The notes beneath the pieces were generated by a model, which was given only the letters and a program-made list of their open reading frames with translations, ran no database searches and had not been told where the DNA came from. A program made the position numbers and the translations under genes. 43,901 bases of DNA, from NCBI GenBank assembly GCA_030040265.1, contig JASHUB010000069.1:1-43901 (forward strand), written 5' to 3'. The DNA is from Candidatus Micrarchaeota archaeon (GTDB lineage Archaea > Micrarchaeota > Micrarchaeia > Micrarchaeales > CABMGC01). This document shows positions 7,857 through 40,879 of the stretch, piece by piece (positions within the stretch are counted from its first letter, which is position 1; each line of letters opens with the position of its first letter).

Positions 7857-8186
7857 ATGGCGCTCCTCCTGGTCAGCACGATCCTTGGAGGCGTGGGCCA
7901 GCTGCTGCTCAAGATAGGCATATCAAACCCGACGCACCTGGCTCTCGGAACGGTTGGCCTGGTCGGCTTCATAGTGCTCGGGTTCATCGCGTACGTCGCC
8001 TCATCGGGATTTTACCTTTACGTTCTTGGTAGGATGCACCTCAGCTGGGCGTACGGATTCGGCGGCATAAGCTACATAGCCGCAACGATACTAGCGATGC
8101 TGGTCCTCTCGGAAGCGGTGAGCCCGCTACGATGGGCCGGGATCATAATCATAGCGATAGGCACCGCACTGGTAGGGCTGAGCTGA
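7857..8186 (+). CDS. Small 4-TM membrane protein, EamA/SMR-like half transporter (partner of 7461-7820)
   Basis: About 109 aa from the ATG at 7857 (the ORF track starts at GTG 7821). Four hydrophobic helices. Same architecture as the upstream gene. Confidence 0.5.
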   Translation: MALLLVSTILGGVGQLLLKIGISNPTHLALGTVGLVGFIVLGFIAYVASSGFYLYVLGRMHLSWAYGFGGISYIAATILAMLVLSEAVSPLRWAGIIIIAIGTALVGLS

Positions 8187-8190
8187 TCGG

Positions 8191-8718: not shown

Positions 8719-8723
8719 CGCCG

Positions 8724-9806: not shown

Positions 9807-10087
9807 ACTTTGCACCCTGCAAGAACCTATGCAAGTCAATGTTTTTATAGCGTGTGTACGGGCCAAAAACCGAAGAGTTCGTCAGGATTTATATATCTGC
9901 AAAAGCAACCTGTTATCGGCGTTTAGAGCATATTCTTATAATCTTCCCACTCTCTAAACGTCTCCTACTCAACTCGGCATTCCACAACCCGGCAGGCATT
10001 GGAAACAGCTTAAAAGCTTGGCGTCGGGTCTATTAACGGGATACTGGTTATTAAGGCTATCCCGGCAATATATAGTGTGATACTCTT

Positions 10088-12139
10088 ATGCAGAAGTTTA
10101 AGTCGACAAACGACATACAGATCCCTGACAGGATCATAGACCAGGTAATAGGGCAGGAGAACGCCGCCAACATAATAAAGAAGGCTGCAAAGCAGCACAG
10201 GAACATTCTACTTATAGGAGAGCCTGGGACCGGAAAGACCATGCTCGCGCAGGCCATGGCGCAGCTGCTGCCTGCTACGGATCTTGAGGACGTCCTTGTC
10301 TACAGGAACGTGAACGACGAGAACAAGCCGATAGTGAAGACCGTCAAGACGTATCCGAAGCCTCCGGAGGCGGGCAAGCCGGCCGGTGACGGGCAGGGAA
10401 GGCAGATAATCCAGAAGGAGAAGCTCAGGTCGAAGATAGACAGCGGCTCAGGAAGGAACAACATCACCCCGATAGTGATCATCCTAGTAATAATCATACT
10501 CATAGTCTCATTCTCCGGAATATTCGGAGGGAACCAGCTCATCCTGCTCGCGGCGCTCATACTGGGAGTGCTGATATTCGGCTCGATGGCGCTCTTCGTC
10601 ACCGGCTTCAGGAGAGCCGGCGTCATTCCGGGGATGTTCGACACAAGCGAACCTAAGCTCATCGTTGACAACACGGGAAGAGACAGCGCACCGTTCGTGG
10701 ACGGCACCGGTTCGAGGGCCGGGGCGCTCTTCGGAGACGTTAAGCACGACCCGCTGCAGTCTGGCGGCCTCGGGACTCCGCCGCACCTCAGAGTGGAGAG
10801 CGGAGCGGTGCACAGGGCAAACCACGGCGTGCTGTACGTCGATGAGGTCGCGTCGCTCGAGCCTAGGTCGCAGCAGGAGCTTCTGACCGCACTGCAGGAG
10901 AAGAAATATTCGATAACCGGCCAGAGCGAACTTAGCTCTGGTGCAATCGTAAGGACCGAGCCGGTGCCTTGCGACTTCATACTCGTTGCCGCGGGGAACG
11001 TGCAGGACCTGCAGAAGATGCACCCTGCGCTCCGTTCAAGGATACGCGGATACGGATATGAAGTCTACATGGACTCCTCGATGCCTGACACGCAATCCAA
11101 TGTTGACAAACTACTCCGGTTCATAGCGCAGGAGGTGAGGAAGGACGGCAGGATACCTCCATTCGACTACGATGCCGCAATGGAGATCGTGGAGGAGTCG
11201 AGAAGGAGGAGCGGCAGGAAGAACAGGTTGTCGCTGATACTCAGGGACTTGGGAGGCCTGGTCAGGGCCGCGGGAGACGTCGCGAAGGAACGCGGGCACT
11301 CGCTTGTTACTCGGGACGACGTCAAGGCGGCGATGGCATTCGCGAAGCCGATAGAGGCGCAGTTCGTAGACCAGTCGCTCGAATACAAGAAGGACTACAA
11401 GGTCTTCGCAACAAGAGGGTTCGCGATAGGGAAGGTCAACGGGCTCGCGGTCATCGGCACGTCGCACCTGTCAACAGGAGTCATCATACCGATAGTAGCG
11501 GAAGTCACGCCGGCGAGCTCCCGAGCTGAAGGCAAGCTCATAGCAACGGGCAAGCTCGGCAAGATCGCGCAGGAGGCCGTGAAGAACATCAGCGCAGTCA
11601 TCAAGAGGCACATGAACAGGGACGTAGCAAGCTACGACGTTCACGTGCAGTTCCTCCAGACATACGAAGGCGTGGAGGGCGACAGCGCATCAATCTCAGT
11701 AGCGGTCAGCGTCATATCCGCGATGGAGGGCATACCGATAGACCAGGAAGTGGCCATGACAGGTTCGCTCTCGGTGAGGGGAGATGTGCTGCCTGTGGGC
11801 GGCGTGACCAACAAGGTCAAGGCTGCGATAGAGAGCGGTATGAAGATAGTCATAATACCAAAGGCGAACGAGAAGGACGTCTACATAGACAAGACCGAGC
11901 TGAAGAAGATACGGATCGTGCCGGTCAGGAACATCGCCGAAGTCCTAGAGGTGGCGCTCAAGAAGAGCCCGAGGAGAGACGCAATAATTAAGGAACTTAA
12001 GCAATACATAACAAAGGACAGCCAGGAGAAACCGCCGCTGGTGATAGCGCCGAAGGAAGGCAGGGAAGACGGCCAGGAAGAAAAGGTGATCAGATCGCAA
12101 AGAAGGAGAACGACGCAAAGAAGAAGATCGAAGGGCTAG
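10088..12139 (+). CDS. lonB: Archaeal membrane-anchored Lon protease (LonB)
   Basis: Walker A GEPGTGKT. Two TM helices inserted in the AAA+ module ([15 protein letters not shown]..., [21 protein letters not shown]). Walker B VLYVDE. The C-terminal Lon protease domain has GDSASISVA (catalytic Ser) and GGVTNKV. Confidence 0.92.
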
Positions 12140-13907: not shown

Positions 13908-14360
13908 TTAATGGAATCTGTCAAAAGCTTTGAACGTCTTAAGCCTTTTCTTGCTACCATCGTATTTTGCGCCTAAGAATGCATTTAGGATTTGCCCTAC
14001 TTCCCCTTTTTCGGAATTCCAACCAACAAGGCAGAGCACATTGCAGTTGTCATAAACCCTGGACCATTCTGCAATCTTCGGCGAAGTGGCAAGACAGGCA
14101 CGTATGCCTGCAAATCGGTTTGCGCCCATGTCCATACCGATGCCAGTGCCGCAAGAGAGAATCCCTAGGTTTCCTTTTCTCTGCAGTACTTTCTTTGTGA
14201 CAGATGGGATTAGGTCCTCTAATCTCATGTCATCGCCTGATGCTTTAACGCCAAGATTCTCGTACTTCACGCCGTGCGATTTTAGGAAACGTTCTACGAA
14301 CCCGATTGCTTTGTAACCATGGTGGTCTGCGGCTATGTAAACCATGCCTACTTTTACCAT
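13908..14360 (-). CDS. rpiB: Ribose-5-phosphate isomerase B (RpiB/LacAB family)
   Basis: IAADHHGY, GILSCGTGIGMDMGANRFAGIRA, NCNVLCLVG. 150 aa. Confidence 0.88.
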   Translation of the reverse strand: MVKVGMVYIAADHHGYKAIGFVERFLKSHGVKYENLGVKASGDDMRLEDLIPSVTKKVLQRKGNLGILSCGTGIGMDMGANRFAGIRACLATSPKIAEWSRVYDNCNVLCLVGWNSEKGEVGQILNAFLGAKYDGSKKRLKTFKAFDRFH

Positions 14361-16484: not shown

Positions 16485-16814
16485 ATGCCAAGAACGTCAG
16501 CACCAAAATCAGAAGTTAAGCCTGTAGAACGGAACACTACATTTGTACCCCTAGAAAGACGCACTCCGGAGAACCTGGTCGGAGTTATGATCGACTGGGG
16601 ACGCCACATGAACCCCGTCTCTCTTGGGATCGAGGTTAGAAGGCCGATATCGGACATGGTTCCTGCGGACCGTGAGGCACTAAAGGCAGTCGCACGAGAT
16701 GTGGCCGCAAGGGTCGAAGGGCCTTTTGCGGACAACGACCGTAGAGTGCTGCAGGAGATCCAGACAGCATGCGACACGGCAGTGCCTGGCCCTCATAACT
16801 ATTTTAATCTCTAG
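16485..16814 (+). CDS. Hypothetical small protein (109 aa)
   Basis: ATG preceded by the TATA-like gcttaaatacc (16444-16454). No recognisable family. The 3' end overlaps ftsY convergently by 4 nt. Confidence 0.4.
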   Translation: MPRTSAPKSEVKPVERNTTFVPLERRTPENLVGVMIDWGRHMNPVSLGIEVRRPISDMVPADREALKAVARDVAARVEGPFADNDRRVLQEIQTACDTAVPGPHNYFNL

Positions 16815-18023: not shown

Positions 18024-18452
18024 CTATCGGCCGAGCGTTTGGAGGTTGTACGATATCTCCAGCAGGTCCTTCTCGGTCTTCAGTTTCTCCTCGTTGAGCT
18101 TCTGCAGCATCGTCCTCTCGTCGGCCTCGTTCTTCCTGAAGTACTCCTTCGCGTCTGCGACGCTCTTCTCGACGATGTAACCGGCCCCGACATATGTGAG
18201 GACTTTCTTCACGCTGCCTATCTTCGCATCTATGTAAACGCCGCCCTCGAGCGCGAGCATGCCGTTGCTGTTCTCTATCTTCGACATGTGCTCCATCAGG
18301 TCGACGTTCCTGAGCAGGATGTTCTGGGCGGACACGTACAGCGATATCTCGTTGAGCAGCGCCTCGTACTTCTGCGCGTACACGTTGTACAGGTACCTGA
18401 GCTGGTCTGCCTGCTCCGCCATGTCGATGCTCGGTGGGTTGTTGTCTGCCAT
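18024..18452 (-). CDS. pfdA: Prefoldin alpha subunit
   Basis: 142 aa coiled-coil / beta-hairpin / coiled-coil with a central YVGAGYIVEKSVADAKEY motif. Sits in the conserved archaeal neighbourhood with ftsY and eif6. Confidence 0.85.
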   Translation of the reverse strand: MADNNPPSIDMAEQADQLRYLYNVYAQKYEALLNEISLYVSAQNILLRNVDLMEHMSKIENSNGMLALEGGVYIDAKIGSVKKVLTYVGAGYIVEKSVADAKEYFRKNEADERTMLQKLNEEKLKTEKDLLEISYNLQTLGR

Positions 18453-18498
18453 TGAAACACTAGTGATATTCTATTGCCGGCGATGTTTTTATAGGTTG

Positions 18499-19167
18499 CT
18501 AGAGCCCGAGGCCCTGCGACAGCCTGGCGAGCTCGAATCCTGTGGTGGCCTCTCCGACGACCATCCCCTTCGAGTTTGCGAGCGCGCACAGACCTATGCT
18601 GAGCGATCCCGTGTTCGCCGTGGACTGCGTCGTATCTATTCCGAGCCACTTCTTCGCGTCCTCCAGCTCCTCGTCAGTAGTCCTGTTGTTCAGGACCGCG
18701 CCAGCGTTGGTGAGTATGTTGCTCGCGCCAACTGTGGTGAAGCCGCCGAATGCTGCCCGGACCACCTCGACGCCGAGCACGTCGCGTATGACCTTCTCCT
18801 CCTTGTCGCTGTATTCTGGGTTTATTATCGCAATCTTGTCGTTGACAAGGATGTTGTTCCCGAGCGCATTGAGATCCGTGTGCATCCTGTGCACGTTGAA
18901 GCCAGGCATCGCCGCCTTGAGCCTGTGGAACTCCTCTTCGTGCATCAGCTCTGGCAGTATTATTCCGTTGGAGTTGCCGGCCGTGTATATGCCGAGCAGG
19001 TCAGAGCCGTCGATGGACGTCTTTATCGGCTGCACCGAGAGGGTCTTGCTGAGAAGCTCCTCCTTGTGCTCGGTCACGTTCAATCCAAGAAGAATGAATC
19101 GTTCGGTCACGGTCGCGAACGCGCCGATGTAATCGTTGCCGTTCAGGCTGGTCTTGACGACTCCCAT
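18499..19167 (-). CDS. eif6: Translation initiation factor 6 (aIF6)
   Basis: 222 aa pentein-repeat pattern (NDYIGAFATVTE, GIYTAGNSNGIILP, GASNILTNAGAVL, SIGLCALANSKG). Confidence 0.9.
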   Translation of the reverse strand: MGVVKTSLNGNDYIGAFATVTERFILLGLNVTEHKEELLSKTLSVQPIKTSIDGSDLLGIYTAGNSNGIILPELMHEEEFHRLKAAMPGFNVHRMHTDLNALGNNILVNDKIAIINPEYSDKEEKVIRDVLGVEVVRAAFGGFTTVGASNILTNAGAVLNNRTTDEELEDAKKWLGIDTTQSTANTGSLSIGLCALANSKGMVVGEATTGFELARLSQGLGL

Positions 19168-19170
19168 GGC

Positions 19171-19602
19171 TTATACCTGTCCCTTGTCTTTCTGCTCCTG
19201 CTTCTTGGGCGCTGCCGCAGGCTTCTTTGCGTCCTGCTTCTTCGGCTGCTCCTTGGCTGCGGGTGCAGGCTTGGCGCCTGGTTTTGCCGCTGTAGCGACC
19301 GGCTTTGCGGTCGGCTGCGCTGCAGGCGTGTACGTCTTCCTCCAGTTCTTGAGAGAATCGGATAGCGTGACCTTGACTTCGCCTCCGGTCTTGTCCAGGC
19401 TGACCTGGACCGGCCTCAGGTGGATCGCGACGTTCCTTATCATGTACTCGTTGACGTCCATGCCTATCGACACGTCCTCCGGGTCGACCTTCGCGTGCCT
19501 CGCGACCTCGGCGCGCAGGTACCGCATGGCCTGCTTCCTCCTCCTTGTGGAGTGTATCGCCACCAGCTTCTTTCTCAGGTTGATCGTGAGTGATGTTGCC
19601 AT
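19171..19602 (-). CDS. rpl31e: Ribosomal protein L31e with a ~55-aa K/A/P-rich C-terminal extension
   Basis: L31e core (INLRK...RRRKQAMRYLRAEVARH...DVSIGMDVNEYMIRN), followed by the low-complexity PAAQPTAKPVATAAKPGAKPAPAAKEQPKKQDAKKPAAAPKKQEQKDKGQV. Confidence 0.88.
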   Translation of the reverse strand: MATSLTINLRKKLVAIHSTRRRKQAMRYLRAEVARHAKVDPEDVSIGMDVNEYMIRNVAIHLRPVQVSLDKTGGEVKVTLSDSLKNWRKTYTPAAQPTAKPVATAAKPGAKPAPAAKEQPKKQDAKKPAAAPKKQEQKDKGQV

Positions 19603-19606
19603 GGAT

Positions 19607-19765
19607 TCATCCCTTTATTCGCATCTTCTGCCTTCTCCAGCTCCTCTGGAACATGTTCTGGCTCACCTTCCGGTGGGTCCTGAGGCTGGCCAGTATCGGC
19701 AGCCTCCTCGACTGCTTCAGCTTCTTGCCTAGCATCCTCTTCTTCTGCTGGCTTTTCTTACCCAT
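19607..19765 (-). CDS. rpl39e: Ribosomal protein L39e (52 aa; below the ORF-track size cut-off)
   Basis: Hand translation of the minus strand gives MGKKSQQKKRMLGKKLKQSRRLPILASLRTHRKVSQNMFQRSWRRQKMRIKG*. This matches the L39e pattern (KKL..KQ.RR.P.....T.R.V..N..QR.WRR.K). Located between the PDCD5-like gene and rpl31e, as in the conserved archaeal cluster. Confidence 0.85.
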   Translation of the reverse strand: MGKKSQQKKRMLGKKLKQSRRLPILASLRTHRKVSQNMFQRSWRRQKMRIKG

Positions 19766-19774
19766 ATGAACACT

Positions 19775-20074
19775 TCATTTGTGCTTAAACTCTATCTTCG
19801 GTTCCGGCCTGTATGTCAGCCGCGCGAGAATCTCACGCAGCTGCTCCTCGGTTATCTTCCCGGCGATCTTGTTCGATTGCGCCATGGCGAGTATCCAGTC
19901 CGTGAGCTTCTCATAGAGCTCGCGGTTGGCGACCCGCACGTTCATGAACCTCTCGAACGCTTCCGGGGTGAGATATTTCTTGATCATCTCCTTCTTCTGT
20001 TGCGCAACCTGCATTTCGCGCAGCCTCTTTTGAAGGGCCTTCTTCATCTTTTCGTCCTGGGCCTCTTCGGGCAC
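19775..20074 (-). CDS. PDCD5/TFAR19-like DNA-binding protein (COG2118 family)
   Basis: About 99 aa, basic and helical. YLTPEAFERFMNVRVANRELYEKL...KITEEQLREIL fits the PDCD5-like family. Conserved position between rps19e and rpl39e. Confidence 0.75.
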   Translation of the reverse strand: MPEEAQDEKMKKALQKRLREMQVAQQKKEMIKKYLTPEAFERFMNVRVANRELYEKLTDWILAMAQSNKIAGKITEEQLREILARLTYRPEPKIEFKHK

Positions 20075-20082
20075 GCGACCGC

Positions 20083-20493
20083 CTACGCCAGCACTTCCTT
20101 GGCTACCTTGTCAAGGAAGGACTTACCCTTCGGTGTGATGACACGCCCGACCTTTTCCTTCTTCACGTATCCCTGCTTCTCCAGGGCGTCGAACGCGTCC
20201 TTGATTATGCTTCCGCCAGCCCGCTGGTGGTGGTGGTGCCAGACCTTGTGCCGCTTTCTCGTCCCGTACTTTGTGCGGAGCGCAGAAACGCCTATCGGCC
20301 CGTTGATGTAAACCTGCCTCAGGACGGAGGCGCACCTCACGTACCAGAAGTCCGGGTCGCTGGGCACGCGCTCGCGGCTCGGGCCGGTCTTGACCATGTC
20401 CACGTAGACGGGCTTCTTCACGCCCTCGGCCTTCAGCTTCTCGGCGCTTTTCTTGATTAGCGACGCTGTGTCTGCTTCAAAAACGTTTGCCAT
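20083..20493 (-). CDS. rps19e: Ribosomal protein S19e
   Basis: DPDFWYVRCASVLRQVYINGPIGVSALRTKYG...GGSIIKDAFDALEKQGYV. I prefer the ATG at 20493 (MANVFEAD) over the ORF-track start at 20532. Confidence 0.88.
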   Translation of the reverse strand: MANVFEADTASLIKKSAEKLKAEGVKKPVYVDMVKTGPSRERVPSDPDFWYVRCASVLRQVYINGPIGVSALRTKYGTRKRHKVWHHHHQRAGGSIIKDAFDALEKQGYVKKEKVGRVITPKGKSFLDKVAKEVLA

Positions 20494-20649
20494 AAAAGTC
20501 ACTTTCTTTGCTTTCCTTAGAAATCGGAGCAAGAATAGATAATCTCTATCTGACGCATAAATATATATCTTTTGTTATGCTAACATTAATGCTAATCCGA
20601 CGTAGGTTATTAAGGGAAAATACATTTATAAACCTAACATCTCTAATGC

Positions 20650-20928
20650 TTGGTCGATATTATGAAGCTGAATGTGGTTGAGTCAGACGCAAAGAGCATA
20701 ATCATTGAATTCGAGGAGGCGGACAGGGGCATCGCAGAGCTCATAAAGGACAAGATCCTCGAAAACAAGGACATCGAGTTCGCCGGCGTGGTCAAGGAGC
20801 ACCCGCAGGTAGGGAATCCGAGGCTCATCGTGAAGGCGGAAAAGAACGCCCGCGGCATAGTGCTGAAGGCGGTCGAGTCGCTGCAGGACGACCTGAAGGA
20901 GCTCACCTCGCACCTGCCGAAGAAGTAG
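20650..20928 (+). CDS. rpoL: DNA-directed RNA polymerase subunit L (Rpo11)
   Basis: About 90 aa. LNVVESDAKSIIIEFEEADRGIAELIKDKILENKDIEFAGVVKEHPQVGNPRLIVKA fits the RpoL/Rpb11 fold pattern. Start is TTG at 20650 or, more likely, ATG at 20662. Confidence 0.8.
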   Translation: MVDIMKLNVVESDAKSIIIEFEEADRGIAELIKDKILENKDIEFAGVVKEHPQVGNPRLIVKAEKNARGIVLKAVESLQDDLKELTSHLPKK

Positions 20929-20932
20929 TCCC

Positions 20933-21490
20933 ATGCTGAAGAAGGGTTCGCGGATACTAGCCCTGGACGATGGCCATTTTACAAGGGGCCGCGGAAGGGT
21001 CCTCGTCGTTGGCGTCATCGGAAGGGACGCCGGAATCGAGGGCATACTGTCTTTTGACGTCGCAATAGACGGCAGCGACGCGACCGAGCGCCTTCTCCTC
21101 AAGATAAGCAAGTCTCGGTTCGGAGGGCAGATAAAGCTAATCGCCATGAACGGGGTCTCTTTCGGTGGAATGAACATAGTTGACCTGGAGAGGGTGAACC
21201 GGGAACTGCACCTTCCCGTGCTTGCGATCACGAGGAAGAGGCCCAGGAGGAGCCTGTTGATAAGCGCTGTGAAGAAGATGCGCGTAAAGGACGCGAAGGA
21301 TAAGGAGAGGATGATAAGGTCTTTCGCAAAAGCATCGACGACAGAACACATCAATGGCTTCTACGTCCAGAGGCTGGGGATCAACGAGGATGATGCAGAA
21401 AAGGCGCTTCCGGTTGCGGTGCAGCTTACCAGGCTGGCGCACCTTGTCGCGAGCGGCGTGACAAAAGGAGAGTCTGTAGGCAGGATATAG
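20933..21490 (+). CDS. DUF99/UPF0215-family protein (endonuclease-V-like fold)
   Basis: ILALDDGHF, VVGVIGR, AIDGSDATE, IAMNGVSFGGMNIVD, LPVLAITRKRP match my recollection of archaeal UPF0215 motifs. Family assignment is from memory, not from an HMM search. Confidence 0.6.
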   Translation: MLKKGSRILALDDGHFTRGRGRVLVVGVIGRDAGIEGILSFDVAIDGSDATERLLLKISKSRFGGQIKLIAMNGVSFGGMNIVDLERVNRELHLPVLAITRKRPRRSLLISAVKKMRVKDAKDKERMIRSFAKASTTEHINGFYVQRLGINEDDAEKALPVAVQLTRLAHLVASGVTKGESVGRI

Positions 21491-34129: not shown

Positions 34130-34450
34130 TTACTTCTTCTTCGGCTCGGGAGTCGATGTCTGGACCTCGAGGATGTGGTTCTTGACCACTTTTATGACCT
34201 GGTCTATGGCCTTCCTTATGTCCGTCTCGGTCTTCGCACCGGTGCAGATTATCTTTCCGTTCTTGAAGAGCAGAAGCGCCGTCTTCGGCTCCTTTATCTT
34301 GCATATTGCGCCTGGGAACTGCTCGGGCTCGTAGTCCACGTCCGAAGAGTCCTTGGCTATGCCGTATAGGTCCAGGTCCACGCCAAGGTCGGCGCTGGCG
34401 ACTATGTTTTCTATCTTAAAATCAGGGTGAAGCGTGATCTTCTTTGCCAT
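34130..34450 (-). CDS. tbp: TATA-box-binding protein consisting of a single TBP repeat (106 aa)
   Basis: FKIENIVASADLGVDLDL...DYEPEQFPGAICKIKEPKTALLLFKNGKIICTGAKTETDIRKAIDQVIKVV aligns by eye to either repeat of canonical archaeal TBPs. The ORF is bounded by an AT-rich promoter region upstream and by the dedA stop downstream, so no second repeat can be encoded here. Confidence 0.8.
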   Translation of the reverse strand: MAKKITLHPDFKIENIVASADLGVDLDLYGIAKDSSDVDYEPEQFPGAICKIKEPKTALLLFKNGKIICTGAKTETDIRKAIDQVIKVVKNHILEVQTSTPEPKKK

Positions 34451-34535: not shown

Positions 34536-34823
34536 ATGACACAGCGTTCGCATGGACTGTTTATAGGAAGGACGAGGAACCTCTCGAGGCACCACAAGCC
34601 GTCGACACTAGGCCTCACGAAGCTCATCAAGGACTTCAAGGTGGGTGACAGGGTGGTCGTTGTCCCTAGGTCCAACCTGAAGAACATACCGCACCCGAGG
34701 TACAGGGGTCGCGTGGCTGTCGTCATCGAGAAGAGGGGCAACTCGTACGTCGTCGAGCTCAACACCTCGAAGTACACCAAGAGGACGCTGATTGTGCCAC
34801 AGATGCACCTGGAGCGCGCTTAG
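34536..34823 (+). CDS. rpl21e: Ribosomal protein L21e
   Basis: MTQRSHGLFIGRTRN...FKVGDRVVVVP...HPRYRGRVAVVIEKRGNSYVVEL...LIVPQMHLERA. I prefer the ATG at 34536 over the ORF-track GTG at 34434, which lies inside the promoter region. Confidence 0.9.
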   Translation: MTQRSHGLFIGRTRNLSRHHKPSTLGLTKLIKDFKVGDRVVVVPRSNLKNIPHPRYRGRVAVVIEKRGNSYVVELNTSKYTKRTLIVPQMHLERA

Positions 34824-34837
34824 TGCCGGCGGAACCC

Positions 34838-37800
34838 TTATCCTCTCTTTGTCGCTTGCAGGTCATCATCGTTATCTTTGCCATTAGTGTCGATGCCGGT
34901 AAATCGTGGAAGGTTGATATCTTCGTCTGATGCGATGCCGTCTACGAGAAGATTGAACATCCTCTCCTGTACGCCAATTCTTCTGTACATGAAAGAATCA
35001 TAGGTGCCCTGTTCGAAGAAGGTATCATATGCCGTTGCATCCTGCGCTGTAACCTCGGCTTTTGGCACGATAGCATACCCCTGTTCCGTCTTCCTGACGT
35101 GTGTCTTTCTCATTTCCTCCAGGAATGGCGTTGGGTACCTGCAGGAAATCTTGTGGATTCGGATATCGTAATGCGTTTTCGTGTTTGGAGTATCGATCCT
35201 ATCAAGTCTGTTCAGCGCCTGATAATACTCCGTATAAGTGTTCGGTGCGTCTGCAAAGATGATCGTTTTCCCGGCGTTGAGCGTTATTCCAACACCGCCG
35301 GTGTCATAGGTGCATATCATAACCTTTCGCTCCGGCGCTTGCATGAACGTTAGTCTCTCGAAGTCTATGGCCATCATCGGGCTGCCGGTTGGATCCTCTA
35401 TGGGGTAACCATTTTTATCCATGGCGAATCCTTTTTCCTTGTCGTAGCAGAAAAGCTTCGGGTTGCCGGCTCCGTCTTTCAGGTAACCCTGATCGCTGAT
35501 GGTGCCGGTAAGAATTGCTGGTTTGTGGGTTCGGAGCAGCTGCTCATACGCTTCGGCTTCCTTAAGATACCGCACGTAGATCACAGTCTTCCTGCCGTCA
35601 CGAACATTTTCCTCCACGGCCTGAACCACGGCATTGTGCTTCGCGCTCTGTTCATCGGAACCGACGTAAGAAGGATTGTTCATCGATTGCAGCAAAGCAT
35701 GCTTCTTGATGAGTTGATTGCCCTCCCAGACCTCCCTGTCACCAGCCAGATAGTGGCCGTACTTCTCTGACCAGCCCCTCCAATTCAGGAACATATCCAA
35801 TACCGAGCGTGCCTGCGCGTCGGTCAATTCGAACTCGGTGACCGGCATGCGGGTCTTTATGGGCAGTCTGCCATGCTGCTCCGCTAGCGGTATAGCTGGG
35901 TCGTATTCGTCAAGTACCTCCTCTTTTCTAAACCTAACAACTAGTGGGTCTGCCAAGGCGAAGAGCGCCCTGTATGACGCAGGATCCGAACGGTCAAATG
36001 CTTTAGCAAAGCTGGATTCGCTCTCGAACCTCTCATCATCGGGAAGTAGGTAGTTGAACATCGCGCGGTACTTGCTGATATTTGGATACGGAGTCGCCGT
36101 GACGATTATGACGAAGTCTGGGGTGAGCCTGCCAAGCCCCTTGCTCTGGTTTGTGTCGGTATTAGTCAGCCAGTGTGCCTCGTCTACAACTAGAATTCCA
36201 TCCTGCCCCAACGCAGAATTGAGGAGCTCGAACCGTTCTTCGTCTTCCGCGTCTCTTAGGAACTCTTGATTTGTCAGCATGCTCGATCGTTCACCGCCCC
36301 TTCTCGTTCTGGAGAGCACTTCTTGCCTTATTGCAGCCTTTCGTGCATCCCTTGGCAGACCGTGGAGTAAAGTCAGCCTTTCATGGGGCAGGAACCTTGA
36401 TCTTTGCTCGTCCCATGTGCTAGCAACGCTGTTTGGAGTCACGATTAAGCCTGCCCTCTGAAGGGATTGCAGCGCGGCTAAGGTCGTAAGGGTCTTCCCT
36501 AAGCCCGCCTCCAATGATAGTATGACTCCCTTGCTCCTATCTGCACGTCGCACGGCTTTCCGGATCTTGTGTATGGCATACTTCTGGTAGAAAAGCAGCT
36601 CTTCGCCTTCTGCCAATGCCGGATAGGGTTCAGATCGGATTAGCCTAAAAGTCCCCAAAACCTGCTCCAATCCGCGTCTCACGACCTCGCTGTCTTCCCG
36701 TTTTATCAGGTCCGCCACGCTCGACTCTGCGCTCTCAAAGGAGTATACGAATCTCTTTATCAGGGTTTCTTCGAGCACGTCCACAAGCAAGTCGAATGCA
36801 CCGGCATCCGTCTTGAGCCGGGCTAGTGCATCAGAGCCCATCTGCCGCACCGCTTCGAGAAGCCTTTCGGCATCGGAAGCCTCGCTAGATTGTCTGATTG
36901 TCGAGGTTCTAACCTCACTTCTTGTCTTATCATCAGTGTTTATCGCGAATAGCCTTAGTTCATTGTGTTTGCCTAGGGTAAGCGGAATCGTTGCCTGGAA
37001 CTCGCCATTGACCACTCTGATTCGTCTGCCAAAAGGTCCAGCGATGTATACATGAGTCGCAGCATCTGCTGTGCCTTTGACCGTTAGCGTCTTCCCGCTT
37101 GTGACCACAGGGATAACCGTTTGCATAGATGGACCTTTGAGCGAAATCGAGAATTTCAGATACTCGGATTCCCTGTCGCCCCCTGTCCTATTTAGAGCGT
37201 GGAAAGAGGTTAAGACCAGCCTGTCTGACGCCCCTTCGGTTAGGTTTGGATTAGATAAAAGCAGGAATTTCTTCATTTGGATCGGGTGTTCTCCTAGCAA
37301 GGCTATGACATTTCCCAGGTTCATCTTTTCTGCAATCTCTAATTCCTTGTCCTCCCTGAGCCCCTCCAACTCACCGGAATGAATGTTTCTGAGCGCTTCT
37401 TCCCGCGTCATGCCATAAGAAGACAGTTCTAGGAAATCCCTGGCTTCTACATGAGAGGTAATACCCTTTATGCCTGAACTTTTCAGGCTTCTGGTAATTC
37501 CATAGAATGTTAGTTTGTAGGTCAAGTCGCTGTGGGTTATGGAGACCTCCCTGCGATCGCCTACGGAGAGTTCGGAAATCGATCTGTCCGGGTTGCCATC
37601 GAGGAGCTGCTGGCGTATCGCATCCCTTGCGGCGTCCACGAATTTGTCATCGGACCAGAGCGCTGGTGGGAGGAGCATCCTTGATTTGTTGCCGGAAAGG
37701 AAATCCCTGGCGTCTAGGAAAGAGGTAAGGCCTTCTACCTCGGAACATAGACATCGGAGGATATTCGTAAAGGCGGGTTTGTAGGTCACGTCATTGTAGG

Positions 37801-40168
37801 TTATGGCGACTTCTGTGTGGTCATTTGTCGAGATCTCTGAAATGGACCTGTTGGGATCGCCGCCGAGGAGCTGCTGGCGAATTGCTTCCCTTGCAGCGTC
37901 CACGAATTCGTCATTGGACCAGAGCTCTGACGGAAGAAACATCCTTGATTTATTGCCGGAAAGGAAATCCCTGGCTTCTGTGGGGGTAGTGATGCCTTCT
38001 ATGCCGGAATTTCTCAGACTTGTGATAAGTCTAACGAATGTGAGTTTGTAGGTCACGTAGTTGTGGGTTATGGAGACCTCCCTGTGATCATTTGTGGAGA
38101 GTTCGGATATTGATCTGTCCGGGTTGCCATCGAGGAGCTGCTGGCGTATCGCATCCCTTACGGCATCTACGAATTTGTCATCGGACCAGAGCGCTGATGG
38201 GAGAACCATCCTTGATTTGTTGCCGGAAAGGAAATCCCTGGCTTCTGTGGCAGTGGTGATGCCGTCTATGCCAGAACGTTTAAGGCTTTGGAGAATTCCC
38301 ATGAAGGTGGGTTTGTAGGTTATACAATTGTAAATTATTGGAACCTCCGTGTTGTCCTCTGTCGAGATCTCTGAAATGGACTTATTGGGATCTGCGCCGA
38401 GGAGCTGCTGGCGAATTGCTTCCCTTGCAGCGTCCACGAATTTGTCATTGGACCAGAGCGCTGGTGTAAGAAACCTCCTTGATTTATCACCGGAAAGGAA
38501 ATCCTTGGCTTCTGCGCGGTGTGTGATGCCAGGCATGCCTGAACTCTTTAGACTTACGAGAATGCCCGGGAAGGTGATAGTATAGGTCACGTAGTTGTGG
38601 GTTATGGAGACCTCCCTGTTATCACCTACAGAGAGTTCGGAAATCGATCTGTCCGGGTTGCCATCGAGGAGCTGCTGGCGTATCGCATCCCTTACAGCAG
38701 CTACGAATTTGTCATCGGACCAGAGCGCTGATGGAAGAACCATCCTTGATTTGTTGCCGGAAAGGAAATCCCTGGCTTCTGTGGGAGTGGTGATGCCTTC
38801 TATGCCAGAACGTTTAAGGCTCGCGAGAATTCCAACGAAGGTGAGTTTGTAGGTCACGTAGTTGTGGGTTATGGAGACCTCCCTGTTATCACCTACGGAG
38901 AGTTCGGAAATCGATCTGTCCTGGTTGCCATCGAGGAGCTGCCGGCGTATCGCATCCCTTACGGCATCTACGAATTTGTCATTGGACCAGAGCGCCGGTG
39001 GGAGAACCATCCTTGATTTGTTGCCGGAAAGGAAATCCTTGGCTTCTGTGGCAGTGGTGATGTCTGCTATGCCAGAACATATGCTTCGGAGAATTCCCTC
39101 AAAAGTGGGTTTGTAGGTCACACCGTTGTGGGGTATAGAAACGTTCCTGCAATCACCTACCGAGAGTTCGGATATTGATCTGTCTGGATTGCCATCAAGG
39201 AGCTGCTGGCGTATCGCATCTCTTGCAGCGTCCACGAATTTGTCATCGGACCAGAGCGTTGATTGGAGAACCATCCTTGATTTATTGCCGGAAAGGAAAT
39301 CCCTGGCTTCTGTGGTAGAGGTGATGCCTTTTATGCCAAACGTTACCGGGCTTTGGAGAATTCCATGAAAGGTGAGTTTGTAGGTCACGTCGTTGTAGGT
39401 TACGGGAACCTCCCTGTTATCACCTACGGAGAGTTCGGATATTGATCTGTCTGGATTGCCATCAAGGAGTTGCCGGCGTATTGCGTCCCTTACGGCATCT
39501 ACGAATTTGTCATTGGACCAGAGCGCTGGTGAGAGACGTGCCCTTGATTTATTACCTGAAAGGAAATCTCTGGCTTCTGGAGGAGAGGTGATGCCTTCTA
39601 TGCCAGAACATATGCTTCGGAGAATTCCCTTGAAGGCTAGTTTGTAGGTCACATCGTTGTGGGTTATGGCGACCTCCCTGCGATCATTTGTGGAGAGTTC
39701 GGATATTGATCTGTCTGGATTGCCATCAAGGAGCTGCTGGCGTATCGCATCCCTTACGGCATCTACGAATTTGTCATCGGACCAGAGCGCTGATGGGAGA
39801 ACCATCCTTGATTTGTTACCGGAAAGGAAGTCTCTGGCTTCTGAAAGGGAGTTGATGCCCTCTATCCCGGAATTTTTCAGACTTGCGATAAGTCCAACGA
39901 AGGTGAGTTTGTAGGTCACGTCGTTGTGGGTTATGGAGACGTCTCTACTGTCCTCGGTTGATATTTCTGAAATGGACCTGTTGGGGTCGTCGCCGAGGAG
40001 CTGCTTCCGTATGGCATCCCTAGCCGCAGTCACGAATTCATTATTAGACCACAGCACTGGTGGGAGACGTTTTGGTGACTTCGTTTTAAGAGCCGGCGGT
40101 TTCGCCTCTTGGCCTATGTTTACGCCGCTTTGTGGCTGCTTTGGCGGCGATCTAACTATGGGTGGCAC
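34838..40168 (-). CDS. Giant (1776 aa) protein: 10 tandem ~89-aa repeats, a beta-rich middle region, and a C-terminal SNF2-family ATPase
   Basis: SNF2 motifs: Q-like LFYQKYAIHKI; I LEAGLGKT (36491-36514); Ia IVTPNSVASTWDEQ; II VVDEAHW (about 36173-36184); III IIVTATPYPN; V TYDTGGVGITLN; VI QALNRLDRID (35192-35221). N-terminal repeats span aa ~35-912. No nuclease, methylase or integrase motif recognised. Confidence 0.85.
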   Translation of the reverse strand: MPPIVRSPPKQPQSGVNIGQEAKPPALKTKSPKRLPPVLWSNNEFVTAARDAIRKQLLGDDPNRSISEISTEDSRDVSITHNDVTYKLTFVGLIASLKNSGIEGINSLSEARDFLSGNKSRMVLPSALWSDDKFVDAVRDAIRQQLLDGNPDRSISELSTNDRREVAITHNDVTYKLAFKGILRSICSGIEGITSPPEARDFLSGNKSRARLSPALWSNDKFVDAVRDAIRRQLLDGNPDRSISELSVGDNREVPVTYNDVTYKLTFHGILQSPVTFGIKGITSTTEARDFLSGNKSRMVLQSTLWSDDKFVDAARDAIRQQLLDGNPDRSISELSVGDCRNVSIPHNGVTYKPTFEGILRSICSGIADITTATEAKDFLSGNKSRMVLPPALWSNDKFVDAVRDAIRRQLLDGNQDRSISELSVGDNREVSITHNYVTYKLTFVGILASLKRSGIEGITTPTEARDFLSGNKSRMVLPSALWSDDKFVAAVRDAIRQQLLDGNPDRSISELSVGDNREVSITHNYVTYTITFPGILVSLKSSGMPGITHRAEAKDFLSGDKSRRFLTPALWSNDKFVDAAREAIRQQLLGADPNKSISEISTEDNTEVPIIYNCITYKPTFMGILQSLKRSGIDGITTATEARDFLSGNKSRMVLPSALWSDDKFVDAVRDAIRQQLLDGNPDRSISELSTNDHREVSITHNYVTYKLTFVRLITSLRNSGIEGITTPTEARDFLSGNKSRMFLPSELWSNDEFVDAAREAIRQQLLGGDPNRSISEISTNDHTEVAITYNDVTYKPAFTNILRCLCSEVEGLTSFLDARDFLSGNKSRMLLPPALWSDDKFVDAARDAIRQQLLDGNPDRSISELSVGDRREVSITHSDLTYKLTFYGITRSLKSSGIKGITSHVEARDFLELSSYGMTREEALRNIHSGELEGLREDKELEIAEKMNLGNVIALLGEHPIQMKKFLLLSNPNLTEGASDRLVLTSFHALNRTGGDRESEYLKFSISLKGPSMQTVIPVVTSGKTLTVKGTADAATHVYIAGPFGRRIRVVNGEFQATIPLTLGKHNELRLFAINTDDKTRSEVRTSTIRQSSEASDAERLLEAVRQMGSDALARLKTDAGAFDLLVDVLEETLIKRFVYSFESAESSVADLIKREDSEVVRRGLEQVLGTFRLIRSEPYPALAEGEELLFYQKYAIHKIRKAVRRADRSKGVILSLEAGLGKTLTTLAALQSLQRAGLIVTPNSVASTWDEQRSRFLPHERLTLLHGLPRDARKAAIRQEVLSRTRRGGERSSMLTNQEFLRDAEDEERFELLNSALGQDGILVVDEAHWLTNTDTNQSKGLGRLTPDFVIIVTATPYPNISKYRAMFNYLLPDDERFESESSFAKAFDRSDPASYRALFALADPLVVRFRKEEVLDEYDPAIPLAEQHGRLPIKTRMPVTEFELTDAQARSVLDMFLNWRGWSEKYGHYLAGDREVWEGNQLIKKHALLQSMNNPSYVGSDEQSAKHNAVVQAVEENVRDGRKTVIYVRYLKEAEAYEQLLRTHKPAILTGTISDQGYLKDGAGNPKLFCYDKEKGFAMDKNGYPIEDPTGSPMMAIDFERLTFMQAPERKVMICTYDTGGVGITLNAGKTIIFADAPNTYTEYYQALNRLDRIDTPNTKTHYDIRIHKISCRYPTPFLEEMRKTHVRKTEQGYAIVPKAEVTAQDATAYDTFFEQGTYDSFMYRRIGVQERMFNLLVDGIASDEDINLPRFTGIDTNGKDNDDDLQATKRG
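37431..40066 (-). repeat. Coding tandem array: 10 units of 264-267 bp (88-89 aa)
   Basis: The landmark ggaccagag (complement of the LWS codons) recurs at 37652, 37916, 38183, 38450, 38717, 38984, 39248, 39515 and 39779, with a variant at 40046. Spacings are 264 or 267 nt. Adjacent units are highly similar at the nucleotide level. Confidence 0.95.
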
Positions 40169-40219
40169 TGCTTCACCAGATGTATGCTATCGTATTTGCA
40201 TAGGATGGATGGATTGTCG

Positions 40220-40227
40220 TATATAAA
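40220..40227 (-). promoter_or_regulatory. TATA-like box upstream of the giant SNF2-repeat gene
   Basis: Minus-strand tttatata lies 52-59 nt upstream of the ATG at 40168, inside the inserted segment. The gene therefore appears to carry its own promoter. Confidence 0.35.
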
Positions 40228-40273
40228 GTAGCTTGTGGAAATGTACAAAACGGCACTAACCGCGTCGCTCGCA

Positions 40274-40303
40274 GTGCCGCAGATGCACCTGGAAAGGGCC
40301 TGA
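40274..40303 (+). pseudogene. Relic duplicate of the rpl21e 3' end (last 9 codons + stop)
   Basis: gtgccgcagatgcacctggaaagggcctga here versus gtgccacagatgcacctggagcgcgcttag at 34794-34823. They are 23/30 identical, both translate to VPQMHLERA*, and all 7 differences are synonymous or stop-to-stop. The relic stop abuts the stop of the convergent gene at 40304. Confidence 0.75.
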
Positions 40304-40879
40304 CTAATTCTTCTTAGAATGCTTTTCTGCTAGTTTATCGAGCTTCGCGAACGCCGTGTCGTCGGGCTTCTGCACCTGTTCCCCCAGCTTGAAGTAGTGC
40401 CTGTTGTAACGTATCAAGGGCTTTATGCTCTCGTTCTCCGTGGCGTAGACCACGTCGCCTATGAAGCAGACATGGTCTCCCAGCTGCTTGTACTCCTTCA
40501 GCTTGCATTCCATGACCAGCGGGCTTCCGTCGACAATCCAGGCGTCTATCTTCTTCGCCTTGTGCATGGGCACGCCGAGCTCCTTGAGCATGCCTATCTT
40601 GTCGACCAGCTTTCCGCTCTCCCAGCCACCTATGCTACAGACCATGTTCTGGTCATCGGCAGCGAGGCTGATGCCGAACTCCTTCGATGCGATTATGTTC
40701 TCGGCCGTGGCGTTCCCTCCGTGCACGTTTACCTGCACTATCGATGGCGAATAGGAGACGTGGTGCGTCCATTCGCACGTCATTATGTTGTAGCCGTTCG
40801 GTCCGTTGGTGGTGATGAGCCCGAGGTTCGTCACGAACATCAGCCTTGCCTTCGTGTCATGTCCCAGATAATCCATCAT
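40304..40879 (-). CDS. Flavin reductase-like FMN-binding (split-barrel) domain protein
   Basis: LITTNGPNGYNIMTCEWTHHVSYSPSIVQVNVH fits the flavin_reduct domain pattern. 191 aa. Confidence 0.75.
   Translation of the reverse strand: MMDYLGHDTKARLMFVTNLGLITTNGPNGYNIMTCEWTHHVSYSPSIVQVNVHGGNATAENIIASKEFGISLAADDQNMVCSIGGWESGKLVDKIGMLKELGVPMHKAKKIDAWIVDGSPLVMECKLKEYKQLGDHVCFIGDVVYATENESIKPLIRYNRHYFKLGEQVQKPDDTAFAKLDKLAEKHSKKN

What the first reader, a model, noticed from the sequence alone, without database searches (positions are those of the whole stretch)
34794..40303. Duplicated rpl21e 3' end (synonymous differences only) brackets the giant gene: footprint of site-specific integration without an integrase
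**The two copies.**
- Copy A (34794-34823): gtgccacagatgcacctggagcgcgcttag
- Copy B (40274-40303): gtgccgcagatgcacctggaaagggcctga
- Both translate to VPQMHLERA-stop.
- They are 23/30 identical, and all 7 differences are synonymous or TAG versus TGA.

**Positions.**
- Copy A terminates the live rpl21e.
- Copy B is an orphan whose stop directly abuts the stop codon of the convergent flavin-reductase-like gene (40304).
- Exactly one gene plus its promoter lies between the copies.

**Interpretation.** This pattern is what integrative elements leave when their att site carries a replacement 3' end of the target gene, which is usually a tRNA gene rather than a ribosomal protein gene. Copy B uses AGG for Arg, the codon that dominates housekeeping genes in this window by eye. 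Copy B may therefore be the original host end, and copy A the imported one.

**Open question.** No integrase, transposase or terminal inverted repeats are visible, so the mobilising machinery is lost, acts in trans, or is unconventional.
Basis: seen in the sequence. Interest (0 to 1): 0.8.

Follow-up and report, generated by a model that had tools for sequence, protein, structure and literature searches.

The report
Foreign giant gene inserted into rpl21e end
In a tiny symbiotic-type archaeon (Micrarchaeota-like), a 5.45-kb foreign segment with one giant helicase-type gene sits inside the last ten codons of ribosomal protein gene rpl21e; it brought its own synonymous copy of those codons and no integrase, a known kind of integration scar with an unusual target and cargo.

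Summary
Copy A (34794-34823) and copy B (40274-40303) are 23/30 identical. Both encode VPQMHLERA-stop, and all seven differences are silent. Chance and neutral decay of a simple duplicate are excluded (P about 3e-6 and about 1e-4 or less).

Between the copies lies one intact gene with its own TATA box. It encodes a 1,776-aa SNF2-family ATPase with ten 89-aa N-terminal repeats. It is compositionally foreign: GC3 is 0.57 against 0.75 for 40 host genes, and its tetranucleotide profile lies outside all host windows.

No relative carries this gene here. The closest rpl21e in public data is only 77% identical, so no empty site can be found. The spot downstream of rpl21e holds different cargo in each lineage examined.

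No integrase or transposase occurs in the insert or anywhere in the 44-kb window. In a reconstructed circular junction it brackets the rpl21e-like core.

Best reading: incoming DNA carrying an rpl21e-end mimic recombined within the shared 14-20 nt. Whether this was site-specific or microhomology-driven is unresolved. The codon-based polarity argument is not supported. This is a new variant of a known kind.

The parts
34536..34823 (+). rpl21e, the live target gene (95 aa)
   Evidence: Pfam Ribosomal_L21e, 48 bits. Orthologues at 60-77% identity occur in Micrarchaeota/Marsarchaeota MAGs. Codons 13-84 have host-like usage with GC3 0.75-1.0; only the last 11 codons are neutral.
34794..34823 (+). 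Copy A: the last 9 codons plus TAG of the live rpl21e (attL-like)
34800..34813 (+). 14-nt core CAGATGCACCTGGA, identical in both copies (also at 40280-40293); the likely exchange region
34815..34828 (.). Left arm of the 14-nt inverted repeat (CGCGCTTAGTGCCG). It overlaps codons CGC GCT TAG of copy A.
   Evidence: I11; significance.
34838..40168 (-). Cargo: a single intact ORF of 1,776 aa, an SNF2-family ATPase. Its stop codon is 14 nt from the rpl21e stop.
   Evidence: Pfam SNF2-rel_dom 58.9 bits, ResIII, Helicase_C. phrog_62 'DNA helicase' 1e-39. 78 representative clusters (50% identity) match at E < 1e-30, and the listed best ones align over nearly the whole C-terminal query. GC3 0.57.
34838..37330 (-). 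Conserved C-terminal module of about 830 aa. The SNF2 N-lobe is about 35915-36550 and Helicase_C about 35195-35335.
37406..40066 (-). Ten tandem 88-89-aa (264-267 nt) N-terminal repeats, residues 35-921
   Evidence: AlphaFold2 model of one unit has pLDDT 92.6. No fold match in PDB or BFVD. No PDB sequence match.
40221..40228 (-). TATATAAA box 53 nt upstream of the GTG start; the cargo gene's presumed archaeal promoter
   Evidence: Read from the sequence. Function is inferred.
40251..40264 (.). Right arm of the inverted repeat (CGGCACTAACCGCG), ending 9 nt before copy B
40274..40303 (+). Copy B: the orphan rpl21e end (attR-like relic), VPQMHLERA-TGA
40304..40879 (-). Flavin-reductase-like gene. 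Its stop codon abuts copy B. It forms the right host flank.
   Evidence: Pfam Flavin_Reduct 87.6 bits. GC3 0.79, host-like.

Best explanation
A 5,450-bp piece of foreign DNA (34824-40273) was inserted into the last ten codons of rpl21e. It carries one intact gene for a giant SNF2-family ATPase and that gene's own TATA-type promoter.

The incoming DNA carried its own version of those ten codons, encoding the same peptide with different codons. That version had evolved as a real rpl21e end in another lineage, or as a mimic of one.

Recombination between this mimic and the chromosomal rpl21e end most likely took the form of one reciprocal crossover of a circular molecule inside the shared 14-20 nt. 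This gave rpl21e a working new end (copy A). It moved the old end (copy B) 5.48 kb away, where it still abuts the flavin-reductase stop codon.

rpl21e and the flavin reductase originally met stop to stop. Only an insert that supplied a replacement end could therefore survive.

The recombinase is not on the insert or in the window. It acted in trans or has been lost.

**Shown:** the repeat, its silent-only divergence, the foreign composition of the insert, the absence of the cargo at this locus in relatives, the absence of an integrase, and the end-located inverted repeat.

**Inferred:** the circular intermediate, the crossover inside the core, and the involvement of a site-specific enzyme.
For: - Repeat and translation.
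- The silent-only pattern excludes drift of a plain duplicate.
- Similarity stops at 30 nt.
- Insert composition: GC3 is 0.57 against 0.75 +/- 0.08 (n = 40). GAA is 54% against 22%, and CCA 45% against 15%. The tetranucleotide L1 distance is 0.34, against 0.157 +/- 0.026 for other 5.3-kb windows. The non-repeat half is 0.30, against a host maximum of 0.28.
- rpl21e codons 13-84 are host-like, so the exchange lies in the last roughly 11 codons.
- In the relatives with enough downstream sequence, the order Pelota-VTT-TBP-rpl21e meets DUF655-RpoF head to tail, and the cargo in between differs by lineage. It is HAD, GNAT, a YafQ/ParE-like toxin, PIN, a pilus-type cluster, or DUF5654.
- The peptide IVPQMHLERA is shared by several diverged relatives, so a same-peptide, different-codon donor end is realistic.
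- The reconstructed circular junction has a 14-30-14 inverted repeat around the core. No shuffle out of 300 reached its score (P < 0.003), and the real-sequence null gave P about 0.001. The reconstructed empty site has none.
- No integrase or transposase Pfam hit in the window.
- The cargo family behaves as a stand-alone gene. It is AT-richer than its flanks in most (13 of 18) complete-ORF metagenome loci (for example 0.365 against 0.495), in both archaea and bacteria. One locus has a 27-nt flanking direct repeat. One locus, recovered on four overlapping contigs, has a 42-nt flanking inverted repeat. Four of 19 loci sit next to the 3' end of a tRNA or tmRNA gene.
- Integration of archaeal elements into the 3'-distal part of protein-coding genes, with the element supplying a new stop codon, is documented: 14 of 68 thaumarchaeal elements (PMC6563490).
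Against: - No empty site, circular form or second instance of an rpl21e-end duplication was found in 19 related loci or in IMG/VR.
- No recombinase is present, so 'site-specific' rests on one post-hoc inverted repeat.
- The centre of that palindrome falls at the left edge of the 14-nt core, not at its middle.
- The 14-30-14 spacing does not match the classic tyrosine-recombinase core-site spacing. That comparison is from my own knowledge and was not tested.
- Most loci of the cargo family have no flanking repeats, so mobility of the family as a unit is not established.
- Only 44 kb of the genome is visible.
Confidence: 0.58

Rival explanations
1. 3'-end displacement without any att site. Linear chromosomal DNA came from a related Micrarchaeon in which the giant gene already lay downstream of rpl21e. 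It was spliced in by homology-facilitated or microhomology-mediated illegitimate recombination. The donor rpl21e end replaced the resident one, which was pushed downstream as an orphan. This is the process proposed for Rhs, CDI and T6SS effector loci.
For: - It gives the same final structure: a new end plus a displaced orphan end.
- The silent-only divergence fits a donor homologue.
- It needs no integrase, and none is present.
- The mechanism and its orphan 3' ends are described in PMC5361080.
Against: - rpl21e codons 13-84 show no donor-like tract; GC3 reaches 1.00 in codons 73-84.
- The two ends differ at 23% of sites. A long homologous anchor would therefore pair poorly, leaving only 14-20 nt of identity.
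- It does not explain the inverted repeat that brackets the core in the circular reconstruction.
- No relative has the giant gene next to rpl21e.
Confidence: 0.27
2. Transposition or a local duplication created an initially identical 21-30-nt target-site duplication, and the two copies then drifted apart.
For: - Direct repeats flank the insert.
- A 14-nt inverted repeat lies near both ends.
Against: - All seven differences are silent. P is about 1e-4 or less if the relic drifts neutrally.
- The inverted-repeat arms are out of register with the direct repeat. The left arm overlaps it by 9 nt, and the right arm is 9 nt short of it.
- There is no transposase or Cas1.
- The insert composition is foreign.
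Confidence: 0.03
3. The repeat is a chance resemblance or a metagenome assembly chimera.
For: The window is probably a metagenome-assembled contig (relatives are all MAGs).
Against: - A 9-residue-plus-stop identity occurs only at these two places in the window, and the alignment score exceeds all shuffles.
- The exact shared stretch is only 14 nt, shorter than assembler k-mers (inference).
- Both flanks are syntenic with relatives: Pelota-VTT-TBP-rpl21e on the left and CYTH-DUF655-RpoF on the right. Two independent false joins would be needed.
Confidence: 0.02

Closest known systems
[quoted passage not shown] 2019, PMC6563490)
   Same: - Direct repeats (attL/attR) of tens of nucleotides flank foreign DNA.
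- The target is the 3' end of a gene.
- The element supplies a replacement end and stop codon, so the gene stays intact.
   Different: - Those elements are defined by carrying an integrase and are multigene (2.6-98 kb). This insert has one gene and no integrase.
- The target here is a ribosomal protein gene.
- The two att copies have diverged at every silent position outside a 14-nt core.
C-terminal displacement in Rhs, CDI and T6SS effector loci, by homology-facilitated illegitimate recombination
   Same: An incoming module brings a new 3' end for a resident gene and pushes the old 3' end downstream as an orphan. No integrase is needed (PMC5361080).
   Different: - In those loci the new 3' end encodes a different toxin tip and the upstream anchor is long and conserved.
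- Here the new end encodes the identical peptide.
- Shared identity is only 14-20 nt.
- The cargo is an unrelated gene on the opposite strand.
Genomic islands and prophages in tRNA or tmRNA gene 3' ends
   Same: - The logic is the same: the element carries a copy of the target's 3' end, so integration regenerates an essential gene.
- Homologues of the cargo gene lie within 250 nt of a tRNA or tmRNA 3' end in 4 of 19 loci.
   Different: - The target is a protein-coding gene, so the mimic is constrained at the peptide level rather than the RNA level.
- No tRNA relic was found beyond the homologues.
IMEX elements (integrative elements that use host Xer recombinases, such as CTX phage); comparison from my own knowledge
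   Same: These are integrase-less inserts bounded by direct repeats of about 28-30 nt and mobilised by a host enzyme in trans.
   Different: The repeat here lies inside a coding sequence. The reconstructed empty site shows no dif-like dyad symmetry (best inverted repeat not above shuffles).

Membership tests
Site-specific integrative element (integrase-type iMGE) | Foreign DNA bounded by direct repeats (attL/attR) derived from a shared core | tested here: met
   The 30-nt repeat has a 14-nt exact core. The insert composition is foreign.
Site-specific integrative element (integrase-type iMGE) | Tyrosine or serine integrase encoded on the element | tested here: not met
   The only gene is an SNF2-family ATPase. 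No integrase or transposase Pfam hit occurs in about 40 window genes.
Site-specific integrative element (integrase-type iMGE) | Empty site in relatives, or a detectable circular or excised form | not testable with these tools
   The closest rpl21e is 77% identical. Exact-protein look-ups found no other contig. There is no access to reads.
Site-specific integrative element (integrase-type iMGE) | Recombination site with dyad-symmetric recombinase-binding arms around the crossover | tested here: inconclusive
   A 14-30-14 inverted repeat (13/14) appears only in the reconstructed circular junction, at P about 0.001. This is post hoc, and the palindrome is not centred on the core.
Transposon with target-site duplication (IS element or casposon) | Transposase or Cas1, and terminal inverted repeats immediately inside an identical target-site duplication | tested here: not met
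   No transposase or Cas1 is present. The inverted-repeat arms are 9 nt out of register with the direct repeat. The repeat copies differ at 7/30 sites, all silent.
3'-end (C-terminal) displacement by homology-facilitated illegitimate recombination | New 3' end on the resident gene, with the old 3' end left as an orphan just downstream of the insert | tested here: met
3'-end (C-terminal) displacement by homology-facilitated illegitimate recombination | Long homologous anchor, with a donor tract in the upstream part of the gene | tested here: inconclusive
   Codons 13-84 of rpl21e are host-like with GC3 0.75-1.0. This argues against a long donor tract, but a crossover close to the end cannot be excluded.
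IMEX (Xer-dependent integrase-less element) | dif-like 28-bp site (about 11-6-11 dyad) as the flanking repeat | tested here: not met
   The reconstructed empty site has no inverted repeat above shuffles. The repeat is the coding end of rpl21e.
SNF2-family ATPase (cargo protein) | SNF2 N-lobe plus helicase C-lobe above the Pfam thresholds, with a conserved Walker A (GKT) and DEAH-type (DE..) box | tested here: met
   SNF2-rel_dom 58.9 bits (cut-off 24.9) and Helicase_C 24.7 bits (cut-off 23.5). K279, T280, D383 and E384 are invariant in 27 family members. PDB hits are to CHD1L, DDM1 and ISWI ATPase lobes.
Known SNF2-containing defence systems (Dpd, Zorya, DISARM) | Full-length match to the system's SNF2 component, plus partner genes nearby | tested here: not met
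   Only partial matches to the ATPase lobe, at 13-41 bits. The neighbours are housekeeping genes.

The most novel reading that the evidence does not exclude
The giant SNF2 gene belongs to a cross-domain family of integrase-less, single-gene mobile units.
- They would insert at the 3' ends of essential genes (rpl21e here; tRNA, tmRNA and ribosomal operon borders elsewhere).
- They would do so by carrying a peptide-preserving or RNA-preserving mimic of the target end inside a palindromic recombination site.
- They would be moved by a recombinase supplied in trans, possibly by a host, partner cell or helper element of these DPANN/CPR-type symbionts.
Probability: 0.15. Interest if true: 0.8.

Novelty: new variant of a known kind. 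Interest (0 to 1): 0.55.

Why it matters
Integration scars of this clarity are rarely seen in DPANN archaea, whose mobile elements are almost unknown.

The silent-only divergence of a 30-nt repeat is a compact, quantitative proof. It shows that the incoming DNA had already lived next to, or mimicked, an rpl21e end in another lineage.

If a site-specific system is behind it, it would be an integrase-less element that targets a ribosomal protein gene. That would point to trans-acting recombinases in reduced genomes.

The cargo family is also worth attention. It is a conserved 800-aa SNF2 module behind variable N-termini, and here those N-termini hold repeats of a confidently predicted fold with no structural match. 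The family occurs as AT-rich stand-alone genes in both archaea and bacteria.

If the cause was instead a one-off illegitimate recombination, this is an instructive but ordinary example of horizontal gene acquisition.

Tried and rejected
- **Exact-protein look-ups.** rpl21e, the flavin reductase and the giant protein were looked up to find sister contigs. None is on record.
- **Whole-protein word search.** The giant protein found only itself. A profile search recovered only three full-length family members besides the window's own protein.
- **Second rpl21e tails in relatives.** None was found at the peptide level in 19 related loci, and none in the 15 of them with usable downstream sequence at the DNA level. 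A 16-nt exact match in L003 (16704-16719) lies inside a conserved 398-aa gene and was dismissed as chance.
- **IMG/VR scans for an rpl21e-end mimic (attP).** The strict pattern gave 0 hits. The relaxed pattern gave 15 hits with no rpl21e context. A scan for relatives of the cargo found only distant SNF2 genes.
- **Relic extending upstream of the 30 nt.** Not supported.
- **Codon polarity of copy A against copy B.** Uninformative.
- **Flanking repeats as a general property of the cargo family.** Above chance only in the window, in L061 and in the L021 group. The remaining loci tested show none.
- **tRNA relics beyond tRNA-adjacent homologues.** None.
- **Integron attC-like reading of the 58-nt palindrome.** Rejected by inspection. 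The arms match RYYYAAC/GTTRRRY only 5/7 (consensus from memory), and a crossover at an R' box would not leave a 30-nt repeat.
- **Transposon reading.** Rejected because the arms and the repeat are out of register.
- **Defence-system membership.** Only generic ATPase matches.
- **Fold of the 89-aa repeat.** No match in PDB or BFVD.
- **Rfam and tRNA scans of the window.** Nothing found.
- **Literature.** No paper was found on SNF2 giant genes in DPANN.
Full report
**1. The observation**

- Copy A is 34794-34823 (GTGCCACAGATGCACCTGGAGCGCGCTTAG).
- Copy B is 40274-40303 (GTGCCGCAGATGCACCTGGAAAGGGCCTGA).
- They are 23/30 identical, and both translate to VPQMHLERA-stop.
- No other place in the six-frame translation of the 43.9-kb window has even 6/9 matches to that peptide.
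- The repeat finder lists the first 20 nt as a 95% direct repeat (D12). The exact core is the 14-mer CAGATGCACCTGGA.
- Aligning the two flanks of the intervening gene scores 35, against shuffle maxima of 28-32.
- Similarity does not continue upstream of the 30 nt (P 0.2-0.7).

Copy A is the end of a bona fide rpl21e (34536-34823; Pfam Ribosomal_L21e). The TGA of copy B touches the stop codon of a flavin-reductase-like gene on the minus strand (40304-40879). Convergent genes that meet stop to stop occur elsewhere in this genome: the VTT-domain (DedA-like) gene ends at 34129 and the TBP gene at 34130.

**2. The silent-only pattern is the key datum**

Seven random substitutions in this 30-mer leave the translation unchanged in about 3e-6 of trials. 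I also modelled a plain duplication in which the live copy accepts only silent changes and the orphan drifts freely. In that model the orphan still encodes the peptide and a stop at seven differences in about 1e-4 of trials or fewer.

So the two copies did not diverge as gene plus relic. Both accumulated their differences while under coding selection, meaning they served as rpl21e ends in different lineages, or one served as a maintained mimic. The ending IVPQMHLERA is shared by several relatives that are only 68-73% identical overall. A donor with the same peptide but different codons is therefore realistic.

**3. What lies between the copies**

There is one long ORF on the minus strand (34838-40168, 1,776 aa).
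- Its stop codon is 14 nt from the rpl21e stop.
- Its GTG start is 105 nt from copy B.
- A TATATAAA box lies at 40221-40228.

The protein has two parts.
- **N-terminal repeats.** Ten tandem 88-89-aa repeats occupy residues 35-921.
- **C-terminal module.** About 830 aa contain an SNF2 ATPase: SNF2-rel_dom 58.9 bits, ResIII and Helicase_C. PDB matches are to the CHD1L, DDM1 and ISWI motor lobes.

PADLOC gives only weak, partial ATPase matches to DpdE, ZorD and DrmD. PHROGs gives phrog_62 'DNA helicase' at 1e-39 and, for the repeats, phrog_5415 of unknown function.

One repeat unit folds with high confidence (pLDDT 92.6; helix-helix-strand-strand-helix-helix). It has no significant match in PDB or BFVD.

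**4. Is it foreign?**

| Measure | Insert | Host |
|---|---|---|
| GC3 | 0.57 in both halves | 0.75 +/- 0.08, 40 genes |
| GAA among Glu codons | 54% | 22% |
| CCA among Pro codons | 45% | 15% |
| Tetranucleotide L1, whole interval | 0.34 (r = 0.46) | 0.157 +/- 0.026, maximum 0.217 |
| Tetranucleotide L1, non-repeat half | 0.30 | 72 windows, maximum 0.28 |

GC drops from about 0.55-0.60 to about 0.49-0.53 across the interval. The flanking flavin-reductase and AlaX genes are host-like, with GC3 0.79 and 0.70.

**5. Relatives**

The organism is a Micrarchaeota/Marsarchaeota-type DPANN archaeon. Its rpl21e has no relative closer than 77% among 5.8 billion proteins. The decisive empty-site comparison therefore cannot be made.

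I fetched 19 related loci via rpl21e. Wherever the contig reaches far enough, the left side is conserved (Pelota, VTT-domain protein, a single-repeat TBP, rpl21e). In most loci with enough downstream sequence, rpl21e converges on DUF655-RpoF; L001 and L011 show no DUF655 within about 10 kb. In the closest relative the order is rpl21e, then a 55-aa ORF, DUF5654, CYTH, DUF655 and RpoF.

The gap holds different cargo in each lineage:
- nothing;
- a HAD hydrolase;
- a GNAT;
- a YafQ/ParE-like toxin;
- a PIN protein;
- a 705-aa protein without a Pfam match;
- a T2SSE/T2SSF pilus-type cluster.

None has the giant gene, the flavin reductase or a second rpl21e tail. So the spot downstream of rpl21e is a variable region, but the specific scar is unique so far.

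**6. The machinery**

No integrase, transposase or Cas1 is found in the insert or in any of about 40 genes of the window. The window otherwise encodes housekeeping functions, including tRNA synthetases, topoisomerases, RFC, LonB, FtsY and KsgA. No tRNA or Rfam family is present.

Its arms are CGCGCTTAGTGCCG at 34815-34828 and CGGCACTAACCGCG at 40251-40264 (I11). The arms are out of register with the direct repeat. The left arm overlaps it by 9 nt, and the right arm stops 9 nt short. This does not fit a transposon with a target-site duplication.

The picture changes if the insert is closed into a circle by a crossover in the core. The arms then bracket the rpl21e-like segment as a 14-30-14 palindrome.
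- No shuffle out of 300 reached its score (P < 0.003). The reconstructed empty site has nothing comparable.
- Only 4 of 4,000 pseudo-junctions built from real window sequence do as well.

The right arm is made of the codons CGC GCT TAG, which distinguish copy A from copy B. This is what one would expect of an element-borne recombination site that also has to encode R-A-stop. It is nevertheless a post-hoc observation, and the palindrome's centre lies at the edge of the core, not its middle.

**7. Where was the exchange?**

rpl21e codons 13-84 are strongly host-like, with GC3 0.75-1.00 and a positive host-versus-insert codon log-ratio in every 12-codon block. Only the last 11 codons are neutral. 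The junction therefore lies within or at the 30-nt repeat. A long donor tract is not seen, although homology-facilitated illegitimate recombination with a distant anchor might have left one.

AGG is 50% of host Arg codons and 42% in the insert. The host-versus-insert likelihood ratios of the two copies are equal, about 0.7 each (computed by hand). With a crossover in the core, each copy would be a hybrid in any case.

**8. The cargo family elsewhere**

A full HMMER scan with the C-terminal module finds 78 representative clusters at E < 1e-30, and the listed best ones align over nearly the whole C-terminal query. N-termini vary, and proteins range from about 750 to 6,760 aa. The closest four also have weakly similar N-terminal repeats.

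Loci recovered from metagenomes are both archaeal and bacterial.
- **Archaeal:** next to L7Ae, S28e and a histone.
- **Bacterial:** between LysRS and the rpl3 operon, or next to Mfd/tmRNA, LytR or IscS.
- No neighbouring integrase was seen.

In most loci (13 of 18 with a complete ORF) the gene is AT-richer than its flanks, for example 0.365 against 0.495 and 0.43 against 0.55. The GC drop starts in the promoter region.

Other features appear in some loci only.
- Four of 19 loci lie within 250 nt of the 3' end of a tRNA or tmRNA gene. No relic lies on the far side.
- One bacterial locus (L061) has a 27-nt direct repeat (25/27) around the gene.
- Another locus, recovered on four overlapping contigs (L021, L022, L042, L043), has a 42-nt inverted repeat around it.
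- The remaining loci tested show no flanking repeat above chance.

The family thus looks like frequently transferred stand-alone cargo, but not like a self-contained element with constant ends.

**9. Interpretation**

The best-supported account is this. DNA carrying the giant gene and an rpl21e-end mimic recombined with the chromosomal rpl21e end inside the shared 14-20 nt. That gave rpl21e a new working end and displaced the old one.

A Campbell-type insertion of a circle, by a recombinase acting in trans, fits the direct repeat, the confinement of the junction and the palindrome. The main rival is one-off illegitimate or microhomology recombination with chromosomal DNA of a related archaeon. 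That is the C-terminal displacement model proposed for Rhs, CDI and T6SS loci (PMC5361080). It gives the same end product and needs no enzyme of its own.

A target-site duplication followed by drift, chance, and an assembly chimera are effectively excluded.

**10. Comparison with what is known**

Integration of archaeal elements into the 3'-distal part of protein-coding genes, with att repeats and an element-supplied stop codon, is established: 14 of 68 thaumarchaeal elements (PMC6563490). Those elements are defined by their integrase and are multigene.

Three things are unusual here:
- a single-gene, integrase-less insert;
- a ribosomal protein gene as the target;
- an att pair that has diverged at every silent position outside a 14-nt core.

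I therefore class this as a new variant of a known kind and give it moderate interest. The decisive evidence (an empty site, a circle, a recombinase) is out of reach with the data at hand.

Noticed in passing
window 34130-34450 (-); also L001-L019 next to rpl21e: The TBP gene beside rpl21e encodes only one TBP repeat (106 aa, a single PF00352 domain) instead of the usual two. This half-size TBP is conserved at the same position in all Micrarchaeota/Marsarchaeota relatives examined.
   Followed up: partly
window 34815-34828 and 40251-40264: A 14-nt inverted repeat (13/14) lies at the two ends of the insert. In a reconstructed circular junction it brackets the rpl21e-like core as a 14-30-14 palindrome, with P about 0.001.
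   Followed up: yes
L021 6079-6120 and 10917-10958 (same contig also seen as L022, L042, L043): A bacterial homologue of the giant gene lies between LysRS and the rpl3 operon. It is bracketed by a 42-nt inverted repeat that occurs only twice in the 20.7-kb locus.
   Followed up: partly
L061 7567-7593 and 11842-11868: Another bacterial homologue (8026-11724) is bracketed by a 27-nt direct repeat (25/27) in intergenic DNA. It scores 44 against a shuffle maximum of 28. The reconstructed junction shows no palindrome.
   Followed up: partly
L046, L051, L052, L056: Homologues of the giant gene lie within 250 nt of the 3' end of tRNA-Thr, tmRNA, tRNA-Gln and tRNA-Asn genes. That is 4 of 19 loci, which seems more than tRNA density would predict (my estimate). 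No tRNA relic lies on the far side in the three loci where a far flank was available.
   Followed up: partly
window 37406-40066 (-): The 89-aa repeat unit of the giant protein gives a very confident AlphaFold2 model (pLDDT 92.6). It has no significant structural match in PDB or BFVD, and only a sequence hit to phrog_5415 of unknown function.
   Followed up: yes
window 13908-14360, 16485-16814, 18259-21354: Other genes have atypically low GC3 (0.49-0.67). They are RpiB and several ORFs without Pfam matches. This may be a second patch of acquired or fast-evolving genes.
   Followed up: no
rpl21e-DUF655 gap in L001-L018: The gap downstream of rpl21e holds different cargo in each lineage: a HAD hydrolase, a GNAT, a YafQ/ParE-like toxin, a PIN protein, a T2SSE/T2SSF cluster, or DUF5654. 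This suggests a long-standing variable spot.
   Followed up: partly
P0135-P0138 (distant family members, 1,700-4,100 aa): Three large members of the SNF2 family (P0135, P0137, P0138) begin with signal-peptide-like hydrophobic N-termini. This was seen by eye only.
   Followed up: no
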